A stretch of 64,000 nt of DNA from the human T2T-CHM13v2.0 reference genome, Homo sapiens, in the NCBI RefSeq assembly GCF_009914755.1, contig NC_060929.1. The stretch is one strand, 5' to 3'. Below the pieces are notes generated by a model. It was not told the DNA's origin. It did no database searches and saw only the letters and a list, made by a program, of their open reading frames with translations. Position 1 is the first letter of the stretch. Each line of letters begins with the position of its first letter. Below are positions 5,200 through 27,963 of this stretch, piece after piece. The translations under genes and the position numbers were made by a program.

Positions 5200-6330
5200 T
5201 CCCGCACCAGTAGGCCAGGCCGCTTGGTTTCCCAATCCGAGACCGGAAGGAACCGGGTAGACATGAGCACAAGACTCTCATCGACTTTTGGGGAAAACAA
5301 AAACACCGATAAAAATCCAGGCGGTGAAACGAGCAGCAACAGCCCCAGGGACCCGGGAGCTGGAGGCCGCAGCCGCGCGAGAACCGCCGGGTTGCCGGGG
5401 CGACGCTTCCGGCTGGCGCGCGCAGCCCCGGGAGCAGGGGAGTTGTGAAATGGGCGGCTAGATCTGCCCGGCGCTGTGAATTCGCCAGCGGGAGCGCGCT
5501 CGCGGCCGCGCGTTCTCCGCTTTCCCGGCTCCGTCGCTGACGCGTCGTAGACGTTGGGGAGCGGGAAGGCAACGGCAGCGGGATCGGGATGAACAGCGGC
5601 GGCGGCTTCGGTTTGGGCTTAGGCTTCGGCCTCACCCCCACGTCGGTGATTCAGGTGACGAATCTGTCGTCGGCGGTGACCAGCGAGCAGATGCGGACGC
5701 TTTTTTCCTTCCTAGGAGAAATCGAGGAGCTGCGGCTCTACCCCCCGGAGTAAGTGCTGGAGCTCGGCTGGGGGAGGGGCGCGGGCGCCATAGAGACCTC
5801 GGGAGCCGAGGCGTGGAGGAGAGCGCGGACGCGGGCGCGCGGTGCATGTCACGTGATCGCGCCGGCTTACCTTGGTGCCCATATTTGATTAGGGCACCCG
5901 GGTTCCGCCGTCCTGCTCTCCTTAGTCGGATTTGGGGGGTTAACTACTGCACGGAGCCCTTACCAAGGATTTAGAATGGTTGCCCTTTCTGTGCCTCCGG
6001 GACTTGTGTTCGCTGCTGGGTCTTCGAATTCCGTGCCCCCACCCTCTTATTTCCCCCCGAACTTAAGATGGCCGCAGGTGGGCCCGGAACAGCCCTCATG
6101 GCAAACGTCTCAGAGCGTTTTTCCACTCTGAAAATCGCGGAGACCGCGCCTGAGCCACAGTCCAGTTTTTAAGGCCTTGGTGTCAGGCCGTTTTGCTGAC
6201 GAGAAAGCCTGCTGCTGGTGACAAGATGGAACTGGGGCTGTGTTTGTTTCCCAGGACGGTCGCACAAACTTAGCATTTTGGTTTATCTAACCGAGCGCAT
6301 CCATGTTCCCAAAGATCATGTCTGTTAGCC
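5200..6330 (+). promoter_or_regulatory. SREK1: CpG-island promoter / exon 1 region of SREK1
   Basis: Sharp rise in GC and CpG against AT-rich flanks. CCAAT at 5232, ETS cores CCGGAAG (~5243) and CTTCCGG (~5406), CRE-like TGACGCGT (~5538), E-box GTCACGTGAT 5848-5857, YY1-like AAGATGGCCGC 6065-6075. No clear TATA box. Confidence 0.85.
5589..5749 (+). CDS. SREK1: SREK1 coding exon 1 (MNSGGGFGLGLGFGLTPTSVIQVTNLSSAVTSEQMRTLFSFLGEIEELRLYPP-D), N-terminal half of RRM1
   Basis: ATG at 5589; RNP2-like IQVTNL; donor GA|GTAAGT at 5750; 161 nt, phase 2. Confidence 0.96.
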
Positions 6331-8149
6331 CTTTTGACAGCAGATTAAATTTTCCTCCTGAAAGGTCACACTGTCCCAAAGCTTTCAGAAAAAGTGTAAG
6401 TCGGTGCAGGGTTATCCCTCCCGTATACATTTAAAGTCCAGATCTTGGCTGGCATTCACAGCTCGCGGCCACTTCCCAGATAGTGTATTTTGGAATGGTA
6501 AAATTTCCCTCGTACGATATTATTTAGAAAACTCGCAAGGGGTTTGTAGGTTGTTCACATTCTTGCACACAAACTTTTTTTCTTTTTTAATGGTAGATCT
6601 TACAGTATTAAGATCCTCCGTTTTTTGTTCATTATATCAAAATCCTTTGAGGGAAGGGGTAATTGTTACCCAAGATTTATTTCTTTAAAAAAATTTTGAT
6701 TTATTTCCTAGTGATGCATTTAGACCTATTTTTCTTTAGTTTTCTATCTCAGGTTATAACAGTGCTGTTGCATAACTATATAAAAGTTGTGTGGATATTT
6801 AAAATTTACTTTTTAAGTTTTTCTTCTCTGCTTTTTGTTTTGGAATATTTCATGCATACAGAAAAGTTGAAAGAGTAATACATTGAACATCCATGTTCCT
6901 TTTACGAGCATTTTGTCTGTTTTTGGCTACAGTTGATTATTAAAATTTCCCCAGTTATTTTAATAATGCTTTTTTGTCTGCTTTTGATCTAGTATGTAAT
7001 TAGATAACACTGTCTCCCTTGAATATGCCAAGTAATCCATGTATTAATAGTTATCTCCTTTAATCTAGGACAGTCCCGTCCCCTTTTAAAGATTCTAAAG
7101 TCGTGACATTGATATTTTGTTTTGTAGTTCATTTTGTCTTGTAATATGACTCATAATCTGAGTTTATATAGATGAGATATATAGATGAGGTATATAGAGA
7201 TATGTGTATATATATATCTTTATATTCGTGACGAGATTCAGGTAATACATTTTTGACGAGAATACTGCATAAGTGCACGCACGTACATTTTGATTGATTA
7301 ACCGTGGCATTATTGCTTTAATTATCTTAACTTTTGGAAATGCTTTCAGCCATCTCAATTTAAGTTCTCAGAACATTTCTTAATAGTTGAGAATAATTGA
7401 GAATTGTTTGGGGGAGTGCCGTATCCTGCAGGCATTGGAATCAATCAGTAAAATACTTTGTACATGAACCTTTGTAAATCTTGCTTTCAAGGCTGTGGTA
7501 ATAAGGTATCTCATAGGTAGAAGAAATATATTGGAGAATGTTCTTCATTATCAACATAATATTTATTTGGTTGAAACCTGGGTTTGGGTGACAACACATT
7601 GCCATAACTGACAGTAATGGGCCACTTTTTTGAAATCAGATGTTATTACTTGGAATTTAAAAGTCAAAGAGAATAAAAAGTTCTTCACTTAAACATATGG
7701 AAGATTACGGTAGTGTATTTCACAAACTGTAACACATTAAGCAAAATTGTTGCATACGTGTAATATATATAGGCCAGGCAAAATCCTTAACTAGTTTTTC
7801 CCTAAGTGCAATACTAGATCCCTCATTCATGTTTTGCAGCAATACTGACATGCTTTATTCACAGGTTTTCTGCTTCGTAATGAAGTTGTCATTGCCTGGT
7901 CCTTATATTAGAAGACGTGTTTGCAAATTTGGACTGAAATGGATACAAAATGCAATAGTAGTAGTTGTATTGAAAATATATTGTTTTGCAGTGTCACATA
8001 AATTATTTTATGACATCTTTAGAGTTGAGTAGAAATTTAAATTGTTTTAAAATTGGAAATATATTTATTTTCAAATACATATTTCCAGGTATATTGGAAA
8101 TACATTAATAGAATGTGAAAATAGTTTCTCATTAAAATTTTATGATTGA

Positions 8150-13362: not shown

Positions 13363-14674
13363 GGTACATCTTTTATTTTCAACTTTAATTAGCCTTACTA
13401 ATTGTGTTAATAATGTAAATAGTTTTAAGTTCTAAATGCAGATTCATTTTATTATCACATTGTTTGGTTAATAGCATAAATATATATAAATTTAACCGTT
13501 ATTAATGTGGTTATTCTACGTTGTTTAAAGATGGTTTTGTTCCTGGACGTGAAGAATTACAAAGAAATCTGGATTTTTGGATTTTAAAAACGGCTAATGT
13601 TTGTGGAATTGCTAATTTAATAGTATGTCAGAATGGTTTAAAGATTCTTGATTAGTTGAATGATTACAGTTGCATGAAGTTTGGAATTAGATGATTAGAC
13701 ATTAGATGTTAACTTTGCGATTTACTAGTTCTGGAATTGTAGTCAGTTTTCTTTCCTGTTTTGTAAACAAAAGTAAATGACTATTAAGTCATATATTTTT
13801 CAAGTGATCTCTCTTTTTTTAGTGTGAAAAATCTTAAATGTTTCAAATAGATTTTAATATAAAATCTATGTTACAGATTACGTATGTACTTAGTTCGGTC
13901 TTTTTTTTCCTGCTAAAGACAATTACAGATTTTAATGAAAAGTAATTATGGATAGGCTGACAAAATGATTATCCATGAGGATAGTATATTTTCGAATCTA
14001 ACAGGATGTATTCATTTTAGGAAAAGTTCCTTTCATTTGTGCTTTGTCTGGTTCATTTTTAGTATCGGCCTGCCTGGATTAAACTGAATCAAGTAGGACC
14101 AGTTAGAGTCTTTGTTGCCTATAAAATATGTAAGATTTTGTTTGTAAAATCTTTTGTCTGGAAAATCATCACTGTCCAGCTCTGGTGTATGCAAAATACC
14201 TCAATTTAAATTCCATACTACCTGACTCTTTCTAAGACTGTTGTGAAGTTTTTTAGTGATGTAAATGCTTGGGAAACACATTTAGGAAGAGTTGGAATGA
14301 TGATAAAATTTGAAATCTTGAGGTTTGGAGCTTTTATAAAGGGATTTTTGCTTACATATGATACACTTTTTGAGTTAATTTTTGGGTTAAATTAGCTTTT
14401 TTTACATTCACTCGGATTAAGGATTGATTAATTTGAGTTCCAAGTTTTACAAGTAAGGCAGTAGGCCTGCCTGGATTGCCTTCTGTTGTGGTAGACAAAT
14501 CACCATTAAATGACTAAGTTTCACTGTTTTATGTGTTAATGATCCTTAATAACAAAAAGTTTTAAAGTCTTAATTTCGTAAGATTATGTAAAGGTTAAGA
14601 AAGAAATTTTAAGTGAAAATGATAAAACCAAGCAAATGTTTATTAGTTCAATTGTTTTTCTTTTTATCTTGCAG

Positions 14675-14808
14675 CAACGCACCTCTTGCTTTTTCCTCCA
14701 AAGTATGTTATGTTAAGTTTCGTGATCCATCAAGTGTTGGCGTGGCCCAGCATCTAACTAACACGGTTTTTATTGACAGAGCTCTGATAGTTGTTCCTTG
14801 TGCAGAAG
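14675..14808 (+). CDS. SREK1: SREK1 coding exon 2 (D-NAPLAFSSKVCYVKFRDPSSVGVAQHLTNTVFIDRALIVVPCAE-G), remainder of RRM1
   Basis: Polypyrimidine tract plus TTGCAG acceptor; frame continuous with exon 1; RNP1-like KVCYVKF; donor AAG|GTTGGT; 134 nt. Confidence 0.96.
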
Positions 14809-17800
14809 GTTGGTATCTCGCTTTTTTTCCTCTTATTTGAATTTCTGTCCTGTCTGTTATTGCCTTTAGCTTTCCTAGAGATTGGCAAGTAGACAGTACT
14901 CTTGGTGTGTGTGTGAAAGTAAGAATGAAATTTGGAGGAGGTAAACCTTTTTACCTAATAGTAATATTAAAATGGTTAATTTATGACATGTACATTTGAG
15001 GTTTTACAATTTAACATTCATTGGCTTCTGGTTTGCTTTGGCTTTCTGTAGTCAATTTGCAGATTGCAAAGAAAGCTTTCTGAAATTAAAAAATAATTGA
15101 TATGGGAAATTATTTTAAATGCATAAACAAGCATTTACCTTGTGTGTTCAATATTAATACTATTACAAATGAAAATAGTGTACACATTTTGGCAAATTGG
15201 GGTTAAGTGATATTTATAAGAAAATATTTGTAATTTATACTTTCAAGTACACTCTTAAGGTAATTTACCTTAATTGTTACTATGAGATCATTATTTTATA
15301 TTCAATGTAATTGTTTGCTTTGCAACTGGAATTTAATGTTTTCTTTTACTGGCCCCAAAAAGGGGCAGGAGGAGTGTTGGAAAAAAAGGAAAGCAATTTT
15401 CCAAAGCCTCCATGAAGGAAGTAGTTGTTGAAGATAGGAACAAAGGCCTTAAAGTATCCATTAAATTTTATGACCTAAACTGCTTTAAGAACTAATTATT
15501 ACTAATATTTTTTAGTAACTTCTGTTTACAGAGCCACTCACGTATAATAGACTGTGCTGAATTTTGACACTTCTGGTGTATAATTAACTTTTATTCAGAG
15601 CACTGACTAGCATGTGTACAGGATTTTAGAATTGGGTTATTATAAATTAAAATGTCTTAAAGTAGATTTTCTCTGGTGGATGATTGAAACTGTTTTAAAC
15701 ATAAAGGTTTATGGAAAACAGTTTGATGGGCTTTCATATGTAATTTTTAAAACCTCTTTTAGTGGCCAGGCTGACATTAAAATAATATATAATAAGCAGT
15801 TTGCTGCACTTTAAAGGTTTTATGCTTATTTCAGAATGCCTGTTCTGGGATGTCAAAAACATTACAGTCTAATACAGTGAGTACCAGGCTCGTATTTTTT
15901 AAGTCCCAGAATAGGACATTCTCAGTATTTTTCAGATAAATTTGGAAGTGTCTTTCCCATGCTTGGGGGTTAGAGTGGGTAGGGAAGATAAAAATGGATT
16001 AAAGTTAATTATTGGCCAAATGTATCTTTATCTGCTGATCTGTAAGGCTACAGTAAGCCCCAAATTGGTGAGGTGGGAAAGGAGCTGGTGAATGGTTTCG
16101 TTCTACAAACTTTGTAGTGAAATTTCATACTGAGAAACTGCATGGGAAAAAAGAAATCAGGTAAAAGGTTTATTAAACTGGAATATTAATTATATCAGAA
16201 AATTAATACCACCAATAACACTGGGTCTTTTATTGTGTTAGCTTATTACTGAATTGGAAGGAAGAATTTTATCAGTGTTGCTTGGTTGAAACCTGCTTTA
16301 TTCCCATAGAATCTTTCATATATCTGAGAAGCCCTACTGTATTTTGTTATAAATGTTCAAGATGATGGGCGTGTAGATGTCCCTTTTATTGTTTATTTTA
16401 CTTGATAGAGATGAATAAATGCACAGTCAGATGTACCTTTTTAGTGTTTTTAATATTACAACTTGGACAGTTTTACTGTTTTTGAACAGAAAAATTTAAG
16501 CATACTTTTATTGCAATTTAGTTATAAGTAAGTAAATATTTTGAAACACTAACCTACAGTTGGTATTGGTGAAACATTCAGATATACGTTTTTCATTAGT
16601 TGTATTAAATACGGCAGAGATGAATTTATGGAACCTCGAGAATTTCACAGTGAGCTGTTAAAATACTGATTATGCACTACAAGCAAAGAAATAGTGCATT
16701 ATTGTACTAAAAAAGATAGCAGAGTGAGTGTGAAATAACCAAAGAAAAGTATTCCAGTGGAGTAAGTTCTGTAAGAGGAGATGTGCTGTGGTGCTGTAAG
16801 CAAGCAGTGTTCTGTTGACCTCACTGAATGCATCCTTTCCTTGATGTTGAACAAACAGCATCATGACATAAGTGAGAAAAACCATAGAAAAAAATTTAAG
16901 AAGTTTTTTCAGTTTCTTTGAATTGCTGTTTTTTAGTGTAGACAGTAATGTGAGAAGATCCTAAGTTGTAAAAGTAACATTTGATGTGTAACAGTTTCAT
17001 GCATATTAAGCCTTAGCCTTTGTTAATAAAACATGCCATTTCAAAATAAAATATGCTTTCATTATACTTGTCCAAATATGACCTCTTTTTGTTGTTGCGT
17101 GCATTTCAGATTTCTTTTTATAAATGTTAACACGTAGAAAAAGATACGGTCAAACATAACAAGGGTGTCAGCCTAATCATCAGTCATAACTTTATGTCCA
17201 CATTTTCTGGTAGATGGATTTTGACTATTAATTTGGTTTTGTATGTTTTCTCTATGTGATATTTGTGCATTATTAGATGACTAGACTGGCCAAGGCAGAC
17301 CTGTTACACTTGCCTGAGTTAGGCATTGTTTGCCATGCCACTAAACCTGCCGTCAAGTGAAACCTTCATTGGGGAAATGAGATCGGAGTCTGAACCGCAG
17401 AAGATGGACGCCCTGTCTCTGTTTTTTATTGTTTTACTTTAATTTCATTTCTTTTTCTTTATTTTGTCCCTTTTTTTGTTTTTGTTTTTGTTTTTGTTTT
17501 GTTAAATCTCTTTCACTTTAACTTGTGAGCTGGTTTTCCCAGTTCTTTGTAAATGGTATTTCATTAAGGGTTCATAACGTGTTGCAAATTATATTGGGAG
17601 ATGATTAGTAGAGCTCAACCTTAAGATAAAGCAAATTTTCATGTGGTAAATTAGGATACAGTGTTGTGAAGCTCATTGTGAGTCTTAATTTGTGTGTATG
17701 GACTCATAAGGTACATTTTATTCTTGAAACATTAAAACACTGATAAGTATCTCAGGAACACTTTCTGATCTCAGCGCAACATTTTTCTAGTTTTTTTCCC

Positions 17801-20020
17801 CCCTAGTCTACATCTCTCATAAAAACTGATAGCTTCTAATTTTTGTCCTTCCCCCTGGAATTTTAGGCATACAAAATCATCAAGGAAAATAAGTAAATAT
17901 AACAATCTGGGAGTAAAGAAGAGCCTTTCATTTTTATGATGGTTATTTATCATATAACTTATTTCCTTGACTTATGAAGACTTTTTGTTGCCTATGTGGG
18001 GAATGGATATTTGAGAAACTTAAGTATTTGCATGTAGGTTTTTGTTAGCTTGAATTTTTTGTTGAATATTTTTCAGAGGTTACTAGCTTCTAAATGGATT
18101 CTGAGATTAGGACTATAATACTGTGAGAGATGTTTTCCTCAGTTGACTTTGAGGAGTATAGTTTGGGAAAAATGCTAAATGCTTATTTGTTTTATACTTT
18201 TATAAGCTCTGTTATTTGGAGGGTAAATTTGGTAGAATTCTATCTTGGAAATTAAGCAATGGAGCTTTTTCTTAAAGTACTTTTGCCATTACCTTTAGGT
18301 AATTAGAATAAGTATATAGAGTAATTAGAATGGTAATTGAAAGTTAATTTATTAAAAAATGTGCTTATAGTGGATTTATACATTTATAGTAGTATACTAT
18401 ATTTATAGTAGTATACTCTTTTGAAAGGCAGTGGGAGAGTTTGACAACCTACTGATACTTAAGCTGAAAGTGAAAGACTTCATAATACTAAGTAGTCAAC
18501 TTTTGGCCAGTGTTGAATACCCTTTTTGTTTGTATAGTCTTTCTACAATGTCTTCAATAGGTAGTTTTACTTATTAAAGGACAAGTAATATTAAATTTGG
18601 GACATTACTAGATTAGAACTCTGAGTTTCCTTAGGTGCATACATTAAGGTAGTGACGATGGAGTTTCTGCCTCAAAACCTCAATTTATCAAGAATGTTCA
18701 GGTTTTACAAACCTTTTGAGATAATACCAATTTATAACAGATAAAACAGGTGAAATCAATATAAATAGTATAGTGTATATGTGGGTATATATAAATACAT
18801 GTGTTAATACCAATAACTAATACATATAAAGCAGATTATTGTTATTTGATGTTTTCAGTAAGGCCTACCTGCCTTTTGTTGATGCATGTTAAGAAATCTG
18901 TTCTCCAGAATTTTCACTGAAATAATAAAGATAACTTTGTTTTTGAAAGTAATAAAGTAATATAAACTTAGATGCTGCAAAGGTAGAAAATAGTAGGTTT
19001 TATTTGCTTCCTATAAATAAGGCATAGCCATTATTTAAATCAAGTTTTAAATTCCAACTTGAGTTCCATCCATGTTTAAAGATATATTCAGATAATATTG
19101 TTTAGGGATTTATCTCTGCACATGTGGTTGTTTTAAATATTTTTACAACTGAAACCAGGCATGGTGCTTGTGGAAATTTACTGCATATGCTATATTTCAG
19201 TTTAGCATGATTTTGTGCATTGTCTTTTAAAACACTTTTGGAGAATTAATAATAGAAATGCTTTACCAGCTACCACATGAGTGTTCTTCTAAATATATCC
19301 ACATGTAGTCAACTATTTAAGAATTTTTTTTTTTTTTTTTTGCCTAAGGGGATAAGGAAAAATAATGTGAAAGTTGCAGTCCTTATCAGAAGTAATTGAT
19401 TAGAATTCAGCAATGAATATGCCAAATCGTACTTATTTCAGAGTAAGTTTTTCATTTTTTTAGGTTGTAGGGAGTTTTTTTCCTACTGAGTGTTATTAGA
19501 TTATTTTAATGTTACTATTGTTATTAGGCAATTAAAATGTTTTTAAGCAAGCTTTAAGGCATTAACCTCCCCCTTCAGATAAGTATACATAAATTGGTTC
19601 TAAAAGTTAATAAGAAGTTTTCTGAAACCAGGGAACTTTTTTTTTCCTGAAACATTTTTAGTAGTTTCCCAAGGCATATTTTTTGGAACTGAGTTCTTTT
19701 AGGCATCTCTGATGTTGGTGAGATGCTTTATTAACTGAATGGATGTAGGCTTCCTTTTACGTTGAAGTTGATTACATGGAGTAAGTTTTTGTTTTCTATT
19801 TGAAATTAAATGGAATCTGTTGGAGGGTTATCAAAATTGTTTGCATCACAAATAGGTAGTTTCAGTAACAGGATAGGGGCACTCATTAAGAAATTTCAAT
19901 TCGCACATATTTGTTTTTTCTTTTTCTTTTTTTTGACTAATTTGGTTATTTGCCATTTCTGGGGATTAAACTTTAAAAAATGTTCTTCTTTTCTGTATCT
20001 GATGTTCTGTGTGCTATTAG

Positions 20021-20144
20021 TGATGCAGCCAACACGAACGGTTGTCATGTGTAACACAACTTTCGATCACCGCGAAAACACCGTCCTGGGAAAGCGTCCA
20101 TGCTTGATATCGTTTGGTTCATGAACATTAAGTTTCCAGTACAG
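20021..20144 (+). other. SREK1: Candidate stop-containing cassette exon in intron 2 ('exon 2b')
   Basis: Pyrimidine tract and TTAG acceptor (AG 20019-20), donor CAG|GTGACC at 20145. Eight CpGs in ~85 nt inside an AT-rich intron. In-frame TGA at 20122-20124 when joined to exon 2. Confidence 0.65.
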
Positions 20145-20430
20145 GTGACCCATAGCTCAAAGTGTTAAATAATTGTCTACATTATTCAATTTTTAAAATA
20201 ATATTCCATTAATGAGATTGTTAATATTTGAAGTTTTGCTCACTTTTATTTTTCCTAGTAGAGCAGGATAAAAGGAAAGACTTAAGTTCTTATTTATTTC
20301 TTTATACAGATCTGATAGATAGATTCATTTATTATTATTATTTTTTAACTGCAAGGGTAATTGTAAAATCATAGTGTAAAGTTTGTGTGGTGTTTCTGCT
20401 TTTTGTAATGTTTGGAACTTGCCTCTGCAG

Positions 20431-20546
20431 GTAAAATCCCAGAGGAATCCAAAGCCCTCTCTTTATTGGCTCCTGCTCCAACCATGACAAGTCTGATGCC
20501 TGGTGCAGGATTGCTTCCAATACCGACCCCAAATCCTTTGACTACT
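20431..20546 (+). CDS. SREK1: SREK1 coding exon 3 (G-KIPEESKALSLLAPAPTMTSLMPGAGLLPIPTPNPLTT); contains Met117 (ATG 20484), start of a 508-aa form
   Basis: CTGCAG acceptor, ACT|GTAAGT donor, 116 nt, frame maintained. 624-116=508 aa matches the recalled SRrp508 length. Confidence 0.96.
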
Positions 20547-21012
20547 GTAAGTACTATAAGCTGGCTTATGAAAGAGGTGAATGTTCAACTGTGTGACCAG
20601 TTGAATAGAGAGCTTCAGATTATTTGCATTTGGATCTTCTTCTTTTTTTTTTTTTTAATAGAGAGGATTCGAAATCACTGCTTAAACTTTTTTTTTCACT
20701 TTATCAGTGACTTAACGCTGCGTTTTGGATTTACTCCTGAAGTAATAGGGGATTCATTTAAATTTGAGAACCCCAATAGATTATTCACTAGAAAATCAGT
20801 TATTAAAACTCAATATTTTAGATAGCATAGAGGATCTAGGTAACTGTATTTCTCAGTTAATGAGGATTAAATCCATTTAAAATACGTGAAATGATCCACA
20901 ACTTTGGTAATGGGAAAAAAACAGGTCTTTGTCTGATATTGAGAAAATGTAATAAGGTGAAAACATGGCAAAATATTTTTCCATTAACTATGCAGAATTA
21001 AATCATAATTTA

Positions 21013-27596: not shown

Positions 27597-27963
<367 letters not shown>

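What the first reader, a model, noticed from the sequence alone, without database searches (positions are those of the whole stretch)
20021..20487. Double AUGA stop/start relay created by the intron-2 cassette exon, leading to Met117
Seen: if exon 2b (20021-20144) is included, the main ORF stops at TGA 20122-24, giving a 132-aa RRM1-only protein ending VMQPTRTVVMCNTTFDHRENTVLGKRPCLISFGS. That stop overlaps an ATG at 20121 (tcATGA). This ATG opens a 26-codon ORF across the 2b/exon 3 junction (MNIKFPVQ|VKSQRNPKPSLYWLLLQP*). Its stop (20485-87) overlaps the Met117 ATG (20484-86, accATGA, A at -3) that starts the 508-aa RRM1-less form. Established: AUGA overlaps mediate termination-reinitiation in some viral mRNAs, and reinitiation can blunt NMD. 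Inference: this apparent poison exon may be a translational switch that splits SREK1 into RRM1 and a 508-aa protein, rather than simply destroying the mRNA. Caveats: the exon boundaries are my inference, and each overlap alone has appreciable chance probability.
Basis: partly seen in the sequence, partly recalled or inferred. Interest (0 to 1): 0.8.

Follow-up and report, generated by a model that had tools for sequence, protein, structure and literature searches.

The report
SREK1 poison exon with stop-start overlaps

Summary
Every sequence statement in the finding holds. Exon 2b (20021-20144, ag|..|gt, 124 nt) shifts the frame and stops at TGA 20122-24, giving 132 aa. ATG 20121 overlaps that stop and opens a 26-codon frame. 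That frame ends at TGA 20485-87, which overlaps the Met117 ATG (508 aa).

Exon 2b is annotated in RefSeq (hub table). It is conserved at nucleotide level with its intron flanks from primates to birds, reptiles and a frog. It is the only non-repeat, non-coding CpG-dense spot in the gene body. This is the signature of an NMD-coupled poison exon of a splicing regulator.

The double ATGA arises in 1.5-5.9% of dinucleotide shuffles. Met117 is limited to the mammals, birds and gecko found; frogs, coelacanth, sturgeon and teleosts lack it, although a frog has the exon. So the exon predates the relay's destination.

No TURBS-like stem or stable fold is present. Only a UGGGA core lies 29 nt upstream (4% by chance). 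Met117 is also the first AUG, 73 nt after the stop, so ordinary reinitiation would reach it without the relay.

The relay is unproven and unnecessary. No vertebrate DNA, RNA-seq or Ribo-seq could be examined.

The parts
14675..14808 (+). SREK1 exon 2, the end of the RRM1 coding part. It leaves the frame in phase 1 at the junction.
   Evidence: Hub RefSeq table; translation; RRM_1 at residues 23-86 of the 132-aa form P0006.
19942..20020 (+). Conserved intron flank upstream of exon 2b (polypyrimidine tract and 3' splice site).
   Evidence: Read in frame 0, the 27 residues ending at the 3'ss are identical in all 4 unnamed unspliced ORFs that cover it (P0003, P0004, P0005, P0015). P0005 carries the same tail substitutions as the named bird and reptile sequences.
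20021..20144 (+). Exon 2b: a 124-nt cassette exon (1 mod 3) that shifts the frame. It is the poison exon.
   Evidence: Hub RefSeq table (exon of other transcripts); (ag/gt, PTC). (8 CpG, observed/expected 1.22 versus 0.21 for intron 2). (tail 31-33 of 33 residues identical in 12 of 14 non-self hits).
20087..20091 (+). UGGGA, identical to the core of TURBS motif 1, 29 nt upstream of the first ATGA.
   Evidence: present; found in 4.1% of 20,000 shuffles of the 80 nt upstream. (core motif as stated in PMC3035654). Not retained in the frog model, judging from its residues.
20100..20102 (+). A second ATG in the relay frame, 7 codons upstream of ATG 20121.
   Evidence: Present in the frog model but Val in the distant ORF P0189.
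20121..20124 (+). First ATGA: ATG 20121-23 overlapping the premature stop TGA 20122-24.
   Evidence: The stop position (protein ends ...ISFGS) is shared by 12 of 14 non-self hits. The ATG followed by A is implied by the relay-frame residues of frog P0016 and of P0189.
20121..20144 (+). Relay ORF, first 8 codons (in exon 2b).
20145..20165 (+). Conserved 5' splice-site flank downstream of exon 2b.
   Evidence: 6 of 7 residues are identical between the human read-through translation and P0189.
20431..20487 (+). Relay ORF, last 18 codons plus its stop, in the +1 frame of exon 3.
20484..20487 (+). Second ATGA: the Met117 ATG (A at -3) overlapping the relay ORF stop TGA 20485-87. It starts the 508-aa ORF.
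   Evidence: Met-Thr is present in 124 and Met-Ala in 1 of the proteins in hand that cover the site; 42 non-amniote proteins have no Met here.
20431..20546 (+). SREK1 exon 3, the linker between RRM1 and RRM2.
   Evidence: Hub RefSeq table; (RRM2 at 184-252 of the full-length orthologue P0051).
6047..6395 (+). Annotated alternative first exon. Transcripts that start here lack the main ATG, so Met117 opens their longest ORF.
   Evidence: Hub RefSeq table; (7 upstream ATGs, all with ORFs of 3-44 codons, then Met117 with 508 aa).

Best explanation
Exon 2b is a conserved, alternatively included poison exon of the SR-related splicing regulator SREK1. Its inclusion shifts the frame and places a stop 136 nt upstream of the exon 3/4 junction, with further junctions beyond. 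The 2b+ mRNA is therefore expected to be an NMD substrate. The exon most likely serves homeostatic or cross-regulatory control of SREK1 output, as poison exons do in SR protein genes. Its conservation is at nucleotide level and includes both intron flanks, which points to binding sites for splicing regulators. The two ATGA overlaps are real but are by-products. The first needs only an A before the TGA. The second follows from Met117 being followed by Thr (ACN). The frame match follows from the exon length. Any Met117 product from 2b+ mRNA would more simply come from ordinary post-termination scanning to the first downstream AUG, 73 nt away. The 508-aa ORF can also be read from transcripts that use the alternative first exon. 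Shown here: anatomy, annotation, conservation, chance rates, absence of TURBS-type structure. Inferred: NMD sensitivity, regulatory purpose, and that the relay is not used.
For:: exon, PTC and ORFs verified. Hub table: exon annotated, together with intron-retaining variants (14675-20546, 14858-20144); the PTC lies 20 nt before the 2b/3 junction and 136 nt before the 3/4 junction; 12 of 14 non-self hits share the tail (31-33 of 33 residues) and the same end; named sources include a primate, turtles, a crocodile and birds. 9 of the 14 show the exon 2 -> 2b junction. The upstream 79 nt of intron translate identically in 4 of 4 unspliced ORFs; a more distant ORF keeps the 3'ss region, the last third of the exon and the 5'ss flank. 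CpG observed/expected is 1.22 in the exon and 0.21 in the intron; the other clusters of 6 or more CpG per 124 nt overlap masked repeats or coding exons, apart from a 3-position marginal one at about 27716; a double ATGA arises in 1.5-5.9% of shuffles. Met117 is absent from all 42 non-amniote proteins that cover the site, while frog P0016 has the exon; no stable fold (z = +1.29; 186 of 200 shuffles fold at least as well) and no 2*/2-type stem (-5.2 kcal/mol; 99.3% of 1000 shuffles are at least as stable). Met117 is the first ATG after the PTC, and alternative-first-exon transcripts also give the 508-aa ORF.
Against: Met117-Thr118, and therefore the second ATGA, is kept in 124 of 125 amniote proteins examined, although the whole linker is equally conserved there. 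The ATG-plus-A at the stop is retained in the 2 of 2 distant sequences whose relay frame can be read. A UGGGA core sits at a TURBS-like distance (p about 0.04). The 73-nt spacer is close to the published optimum for restart. NMD sensitivity of the 2b+ mRNA was not measured here, and 8 literature searches found no description of it.
Confidence: 0.65

Rival explanations
1. Direct, selected reinitiation. In amniotes the poison exon doubles as a bicistronic switch. Ribosomes that terminate at 20122-24 keep their 40S subunit, scan 73 nt and restart at Met117. This yields a 132-aa RRM1-only protein and a 508-aa RRM1-less protein, and it clears downstream EJCs so that part of the mRNA escapes NMD. 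The relay ORF plays no role.
For:: Met117 is the first ATG after the PTC and has A at -3; the spacer is 73 nt. PMC6614817: restart after PTCs up to 126 codons from the AUG, at 6-243 nt, with an optimum around 78-90 nt, and with protection from NMD. PMC10275272 section 10: reinitiation and NMD are alternative fates. Met117 is fixed in 125 of 125 amniote proteins. The alias SRrp508 exists in print (search listing only).
Against: 132 codons is beyond the tested range, and restart efficiency falls with ORF length. Met117 is absent in 42 of 42 non-amniote proteins although the exon is older. The Met lies in a linker that is conserved throughout, so its conservation is not specific. The 508-aa ORF can also come from alternative-first-exon transcripts. 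No protein or footprint data were seen.
Confidence: 0.17
2. Termination at 20122-24 is coupled to restart at the overlapping ATG 20121. The 26-codon ORF carries the ribosome across the junction to a second coupled stop/start at 20484-87, which delivers it to Met117.
For:: both overlaps and the open frame exist. The geometry (AUG two nucleotides into the P/A sites) is the same as the AUGA of feline calicivirus; a UGGGA core lies 29 nt upstream of the first ATGA (4.1% by chance); the first ATGA is retained in frog and in P0189. The second step follows a short ORF, which favours restart.
Against: The chance rate is 1.5-5.9%. The first step follows a 132-codon ORF, where viral systems need a TURBS. 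The 2*/2 stem is absent, there is no stable fold, and no Rfam family matches. There is no UGGGA before the second ATGA. UGGGA is not retained in frog. The relay multiplies two inefficient steps where one would do. In the frog model frame 0 does not stop at this TGA, and Met117 and the second TGA are absent. One bird has Met-Ala, so no TGA there.
Confidence: 0.05
3. The relay-frame ORFs (ATG 20100 and ATG 20121) act as a barrier rather than a bridge. Like internal upstream ORFs, they capture scanning or restarting subunits and end on top of the Met117 AUG. This lowers production of the truncated protein from 2b+ mRNA.
For: PMC11933307 (abstract): short internal ORFs immediately upstream of an internal AUG repress N-terminally truncated proteoforms; exon 2b adds four ATGs; two open the frame that overlaps Met117 and none opens the Met117 frame.
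Against: ATG 20121 has a poor context (T at -3). ATG 20100 is not conserved in P0189. Few ribosomes should reach these ATGs by scanning, because two in-frame ATGs lie upstream in exon 1. No functional data were seen.
Confidence: 0.08
4. The 132-aa RRM1-only protein with its 34-residue tail is itself the selected product, and the tail is conserved because it is a functional peptide.
For:: the tail has 31-33 of 33 residues identical from primate to birds and the same stop position in 12 of 14 hits; the product keeps an RRM_1 match (residues 23-86).
Against: The intron flanks, which are not translated, are just as conserved. The frog model shifts the frame within the tail. P0015 ends early. The mRNA is expected to be an NMD substrate.
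Confidence: 0.05

Closest known systems
Highly conserved or ultraconserved poison cassette exons of SR and SR-related splicing-factor genes (alternative splicing coupled to NMD)
   Same: It is a cassette exon in a splicing-regulator gene. It shifts the frame and brings in a premature stop upstream of many junctions. Nucleotide-level conservation includes the intron flanks across amniotes and a frog. It resists folding, as reported for ultraconserved transcript segments (title and abstract of PMC3064809, listing; that paper does not name this gene).
   Different: It lies early in the gene, between the two RRMs, and is followed 73 nt later by an in-frame AUG that is the first AUG after the stop. 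NMD sensitivity and autoregulation were not tested here and were not found in print for this exon. That SR genes carry such exons is drawn from abstracts and from recall.
Premature-stop-dependent reinitiation at a downstream AUG (p53 delta-N forms, TPI, ATRX; 'scenario 3' of PMC10275272)
   Same: A stop inside the main ORF is followed by an in-frame AUG within the published working distance (73 nt versus 6-243 nt). The expected outcome is an N-truncated protein and relief from NMD.
   Different: Here the stop would be supplied by regulated splicing, not by mutation. The upstream ORF is 132 codons, slightly beyond the longest tested (126). Nothing was measured for SREK1.
Viral TURBS-dependent termination-reinitiation (calicivirus VP1/VP2 AUGA, influenza B M1/BM2 UAAUG)
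   Same: The stop and start share nucleotides (AUGA) after a long ORF. A UGGGA core lies about 30 nt upstream.
   Different: There is no complementary 2*/2 pair and no supported fold. The motif is expected by chance in 4% of shuffles and is not kept in frog. There is no second motif for the second overlap. The downstream ORF is only 26 codons and has no evident product.
Internal upstream ORFs that repress N-terminally truncated proteoforms (TRIP6/nTRIP6; PMC11933307)
   Same: A short out-of-frame ORF lies inside the coding region and ends at the internal AUG.
   Different: In that case the internal ORF is reached by leaky scanning on the normal mRNA. Here it exists only when the cassette exon is included. 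Only the abstract was read.

Membership tests
NMD-coupled poison cassette exon | An alternative exon with usable splice sites, seen in transcripts | tested here: met
   ag|..|gt with a long pyrimidine tract. Listed in the hub RefSeq table. The exon 2 -> 2b junction is present in 9 of 14 non-self proteins. The 2b -> exon 3 junction is present in frog model P0016.
NMD-coupled poison cassette exon | Inclusion creates a stop more than 50-55 nt upstream of a downstream exon junction | tested here: met
   The stop lies 20 nt before the 2b/3 junction but 136 nt before the 3/4 junction, and eight more junctions follow. The 50-55-nt rule is as quoted in abstracts.
NMD-coupled poison cassette exon | The inclusion isoform rises when NMD is blocked | not testable with these tools
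   No expression data were available. No statement was found in print.
NMD-coupled poison cassette exon | Strong non-coding-type conservation that includes the intron flanks | tested here: met
   (via translated ORFs). (CpG retention). A direct DNA alignment was not possible.
TURBS-type termination-reinitiation signal | Stop and restart codons overlap or lie within about 20 nt of each other | tested here: met
   ATGA at 20121-24 and at 20484-87. Criterion.
TURBS-type termination-reinitiation signal | Motif 1 (core UGGGA, 6-9 nt complementary to the 18S rRNA helix 26 loop) within 45-80 nt upstream | tested here: inconclusive
   The core is present at 20087-91 for the first overlap only, and occurs in 4.1% of shuffles. 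Extended complementarity to 18S rRNA was not checked. The motif is not kept in frog.
TURBS-type termination-reinitiation signal | Complementary motifs 2* and 2 flanking motif 1 | tested here: not met
   The best duplex between the flanks is -5.2 kcal/mol, against a shuffle mean of -10.8, and 99.3% of 1000 shuffles are at least as stable. Whole-exon fold z = +1.29. Caveat: the influenza B element is described as largely single-stranded.
TURBS-type termination-reinitiation signal | The downstream product depends on translation through the upstream element | not testable with these tools
   This needs reporters.
PTC-dependent downstream reinitiation | An AUG downstream of the stop within the working distance, with no intervening AUG | tested here: met
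   73 nt, and it is the first ATG. Published range 6-243 nt.
PTC-dependent downstream reinitiation | An upstream ORF short enough for factor retention | tested here: inconclusive
   132 codons here, against a demonstrated maximum of 126, and efficiency falls with length.
PTC-dependent downstream reinitiation | An N-truncated product and mRNA stabilisation are observed | not testable with these tools
   No proteomic or Ribo-seq data were available. Searches found nothing for this gene.

The most novel reading that the evidence does not exclude
In amniotes the conserved SREK1 poison exon is not only a decay switch but a programmed bicistronic switch. Ribosomes that stop at the exon's TGA restart at Met117, either directly after 73 nt or by way of the AUGA-linked 26-codon ORF helped by the upstream UGGGA. 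One spliced mRNA would then yield an RRM1-only 132-aa protein and an RRM1-less 508-aa regulator, and would partly escape NMD. Met117 would have been recruited onto an older exon in the amniote stem.
Probability: 0.15. Interest if true: 0.65.

Novelty: new member of a known kind. Interest (0 to 1): 0.3.

Why it matters
If the ordinary reading is right, this adds a well-delimited, deeply conserved poison exon of SREK1 to the known class. It also warns that stop/start overlaps around such exons arise by chance at the per-cent level. If reinitiation at Met117 were real, poison exons could act as protein-isoform switches as well as decay triggers. That would change how inclusion of such exons is read in expression studies and in splice-switching therapies. 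It would also explain where an RRM1-less SREK1 form comes from. The question can be settled with a handful of silent point mutations in a minigene.

Tried and rejected
- Rfam scan of 14000-21000 gave only a sub-threshold MIR1886 match at 17373-17454 (29 bits against a gathering score of 62). Nothing matched at the exon.
- tRNA scan of 19500-20700 found none.
- The earlier-findings tool was not open.
It was repeated with a 40-aa contiguous window stretch.
- An exhaustive representative search with the relay-frame genomic peptide gave 2 hits. One is an unrelated repetitive protein (P0188). The other is informative (P0189).
- Four collection scans for exon 2b or exon 3 DNA from other vertebrates (genome contigs twice, viral contigs twice) found nothing. 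The relay frame could therefore not be checked at DNA level in other amniotes.
- Eight literature searches found no paper that describes this exon, its NMD sensitivity or reinitiation in SREK1. The passages naming SREK1 that were read concern other matters. The supplements of PMC11357089 name SREK1 only for another splicing event.
- The papers on rat SRrp86 are not held, and the human SRrp508 paper was not seen. What those cDNAs contained is therefore recalled only and was not used as evidence.
- I rejected the idea that the frog model alone disproves the first overlap. It is a single automatic gene model, and its one-nucleotide difference could be an assembly error.

Full report
**Observation**

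I rebuilt the spliced mRNAs from the window (using the sequence read). The twelve annotated coding exons give a 624-aa protein.

Inserting 20021-20144 between exons 2 and 3 has these effects:
- The insert has an ag acceptor after a long pyrimidine tract and a CAG|gt donor, and is 124 nt long.
- ATG 20121-23 shares three bases with that stop. It opens a 26-codon ORF that crosses the 2b/exon-3 junction and ends at TGA 20485-87.
- That stop shares three bases with ATG 20484-86 (A at -3), which opens a 508-aa ORF in the main frame.

Every coordinate and length in the finding is correct.

The exon is not conjecture. It is listed in the hub's RefSeq table among the exons of other transcripts. Nine database proteins from other species carry exactly the exon 2 -> 2b junction.

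A second ATG at 20100 opens the same relay frame seven codons earlier. In the spliced 2b+ mRNA there is no ATG at all between the stop and Met117.

**Is it more than chance?**

An ATGA overlap needs only an A before a TGA stop, or an A after an ATG. In this window 24.4% of 1328 TGAs are preceded by A and 28.4% of 1140 ATGs are followed by A. The main start codon at 5589 is itself an ATGA.

The two frames coincide automatically because the exon length is 1 mod 3.

In 20,000 dinucleotide-preserving shuffles of exon 2b with the real exon 3 kept, 5.9% gave a complete double ATGA relay. With both exons shuffled the rate was 1.5%. Poison exons number in the hundreds or more, so several such cases are expected by chance. 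The pattern alone does not argue for function.

**What the exon is**

A protein search used a 40-aa contiguous stretch covering the tail (the 33-aa tail alone was too short). It returned 15 proteins with E <= 0.01 among 17 candidates. One is the window's own ORF.

Of the other 14:
- 12 carry the tail with 31-33 of 33 residues identical and end at the same residue. Their named sources include a squirrel monkey, turtles, a crocodile, a tinamou, raptors and a flycatcher.
- One unnamed ORF (P0015) ends earlier.
- One frog gene model (P0016) reads on in another frame.

Four unnamed ORFs are unspliced read-throughs. In all four the 27 residues translated from the intron immediately upstream of the exon are identical to the human translation. 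One of the four has the bird/reptile-type tail.

An exhaustive search with the relay-frame genomic peptide found one further, more distant ORF (P0189). It keeps the 3' splice-site region (8 of 8 residues), the last third of the exon, and 6 of 7 residues translated from the 5' splice-site flank. The middle of the exon has diverged.

Conservation therefore lies at nucleotide level and covers untranslated flanks.

Other observations fit this:
- The exon holds 8 CpGs in 124 nt (observed/expected 1.22), against 0.21 for the whole intron. The other clusters of 6 or more CpGs per 124 nt in 8000-44000 coincide with masked repeats or coding exons, apart from a marginal three-position one near 27716.
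- The exon has no stable fold (z = +1.29; 186 of 200 shuffles fold at least as well).
- It matches no Rfam family and no tRNA.

The stop lies 20 nt before the 2b/3 junction, 136 nt before the 3/4 junction, and ahead of eight further junctions. By the usual rule the 2b+ mRNA should be an NMD target.

All this is the signature of the conserved poison exons described for SR and related splicing factors (abstracts listed). SREK1 has two RRM matches, at residues 23-86 and 184-252, and Met117 lies in the linker between them.

I found no paper that describes this particular exon. Genome-wide lists in supplements that I could not see may include it (closed; one search showed only another SREK1 event).

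**Age of the parts**

A search with exon 3 found 597 proteins with E <= 0.01 among 626 candidates, and the best 120 were listed. All 120 have Met-Thr at positions 117-118. Nearly all are mammals, with a few birds.

A further search seeded from the frog protein found 636 proteins with E <= 1e-10 among 3563 candidates, again with the best 120 listed. It added anurans, coelacanth, sturgeon, teleosts, a gecko and more birds.

Over all proteins in hand that cover the site and fit the extraction pattern (rows that did not fit were left out):
- 124 have Met-Thr (123 by pattern plus the gecko).
- One bird has Met-Ala, so no overlapping TGA.
- 42 have no Met: 36 Leu-Ser and 1 Phe-Ser in frogs, and Val or Ile in coelacanth, sturgeon and teleosts.

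The frog model nevertheless contains the exon, the same 2b -> exon 3 junction, and the ATG-plus-A at the position of the human stop. In the frog the relay frame runs on past position 117, with no TGA and Leu in place of Met. Frame 0 merges into the relay frame through a segment one nucleotide longer than in human.

So the exon and its first ATGA predate Met117. The exon's conservation cannot be explained by a relay that ends at Met117.

Caveat: this rests on one automatic frog model for the exon, and the one-nucleotide difference might be an assembly error. The absence of Met117 in frogs rests on 37 independent proteins.

**Could the relay work?**

Reviews and primary papers (PMC10275272 passages and sections 9-10; PMC6393290 introduction; PMC3035654 passages) state the following. 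Restart at an overlapping AUGA or UAAUG after a long ORF is known from caliciviruses, influenza B and some other viruses. There it depends on an upstream element of 45-80 nt. That element has a motif 1 (core UGGGA, pairing with 18S rRNA helix 26) and a complementary pair of motifs, 2* and 2.

I tested for these features:
- A UGGGA lies at 20087-91, 29 nt before the first ATGA. It occurs in 4.1% of shuffles of the 80 upstream nucleotides. This was a single planned test, so it is a weak lead.
- The flanks show no complementarity. The best duplex is -5.2 kcal/mol against a shuffle mean of -10.8, and 99.3% of 1000 shuffles are at least as stable.
- The motif is not retained in the frog, judging from its residues.
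- There is none before the second ATGA.

The first step of the relay would therefore have to occur after a 132-codon ORF without the element that viruses need.

**A simpler route**

Cohen et al. (PMC6614817; abstract and sections 3 and 18) showed the following in human cells:
- Premature stops up to 126 codons from the start allow restart at AUGs 6-243 nt downstream.
- The classical optimum spacing is about 78-90 nt.
- Such restart protects the mRNA from NMD.

Here the spacer is 73 nt and Met117 is the first AUG. If any ribosome restarts after the poison-exon stop, ordinary forward scanning will take it to Met117.

The relay adds a second inefficient step and no evident advantage. If anything, short internal ORFs that end on an internal AUG are reported to repress it (PMC11933307, abstract).

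The 508-aa ORF also does not need exon 2b. Transcripts that start at the annotated alternative first exon 6047-6395 lack the main ATG, carry seven short upstream ORFs, and have Met117 as the start of their longest ORF.

**Verdict**

The thing itself is an annotated, deeply conserved poison cassette exon of SREK1, most likely serving NMD-coupled control of the gene (confidence about 0.65).

My estimates for the alternatives are:
- Met117 is a selected restart site in amniotes, reached directly: about 0.17.
- The relay-frame ORFs act as a barrier: about 0.08.
- The specific double AUGA relay: about 0.05.
- The 132-aa protein is the selected product: about 0.05.

**What could not be done**

- No vertebrate DNA was reachable. 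Four scans found nothing.
- No RNA-seq, Ribo-seq or proteomic data were available.
- The original cDNA papers for the short form were not held.

The decisive tests are a DNA alignment scored for relay-frame stops at synonymous sites, initiation-site profiling, and a few silent point mutations in a minigene.

Noticed in passing
window 6047-6395: The annotated alternative first exon carries five ATGs with short ORFs. Spliced to exon 2, it makes Met117 the start of the longest ORF (508 aa). This is a route to the RRM1-less form that does not involve the poison exon.
   Followed up: partly
window 14705-14757: Exon 2 holds two out-of-frame ATGs with ORFs of 3 and 15 codons. In the normal mRNA the next ATG after them is Met117. 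Leaky scanning past the exon-1 ATGs, followed by short-ORF reinitiation, could therefore also reach Met117 without exon 2b.
   Followed up: no
window 5589-5592: The main SREK1 start codon is itself an ATGA, with G at -3. This shows how common the tetranucleotide is at start codons in this gene.
   Followed up: no
window 17373-17454: There is a sub-threshold Rfam match to the MIR1886 precursor family (29.1 bits against a gathering score of 62, E = 0.015) inside intron 2. It is probably chance.
   Followed up: no
proteins P0138-P0172 (anuran SREK1), between the exon 3 and exon 4 equivalents: Frogs carry an extra segment of about 11 residues (VLRREK...) plus a longer Pro/Ala-rich linker that amniotes lack. 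One Pelobates isoform omits the segment, so it looks like a lineage-specific alternative exon.
   Followed up: no
protein P0178 (Cricetulus), exon 2/3 junction: Five extra residues sit at the exon 2/3 junction, consistent with use of an upstream in-frame acceptor just before exon 3.
   Followed up: no
window 14675-20546 and 14858-20144 (hub table): RefSeq lists transcripts that retain the intron on one or both sides of exon 2b. This suggests that the introns flanking the poison exon are slowly or incompletely removed.
   Followed up: no
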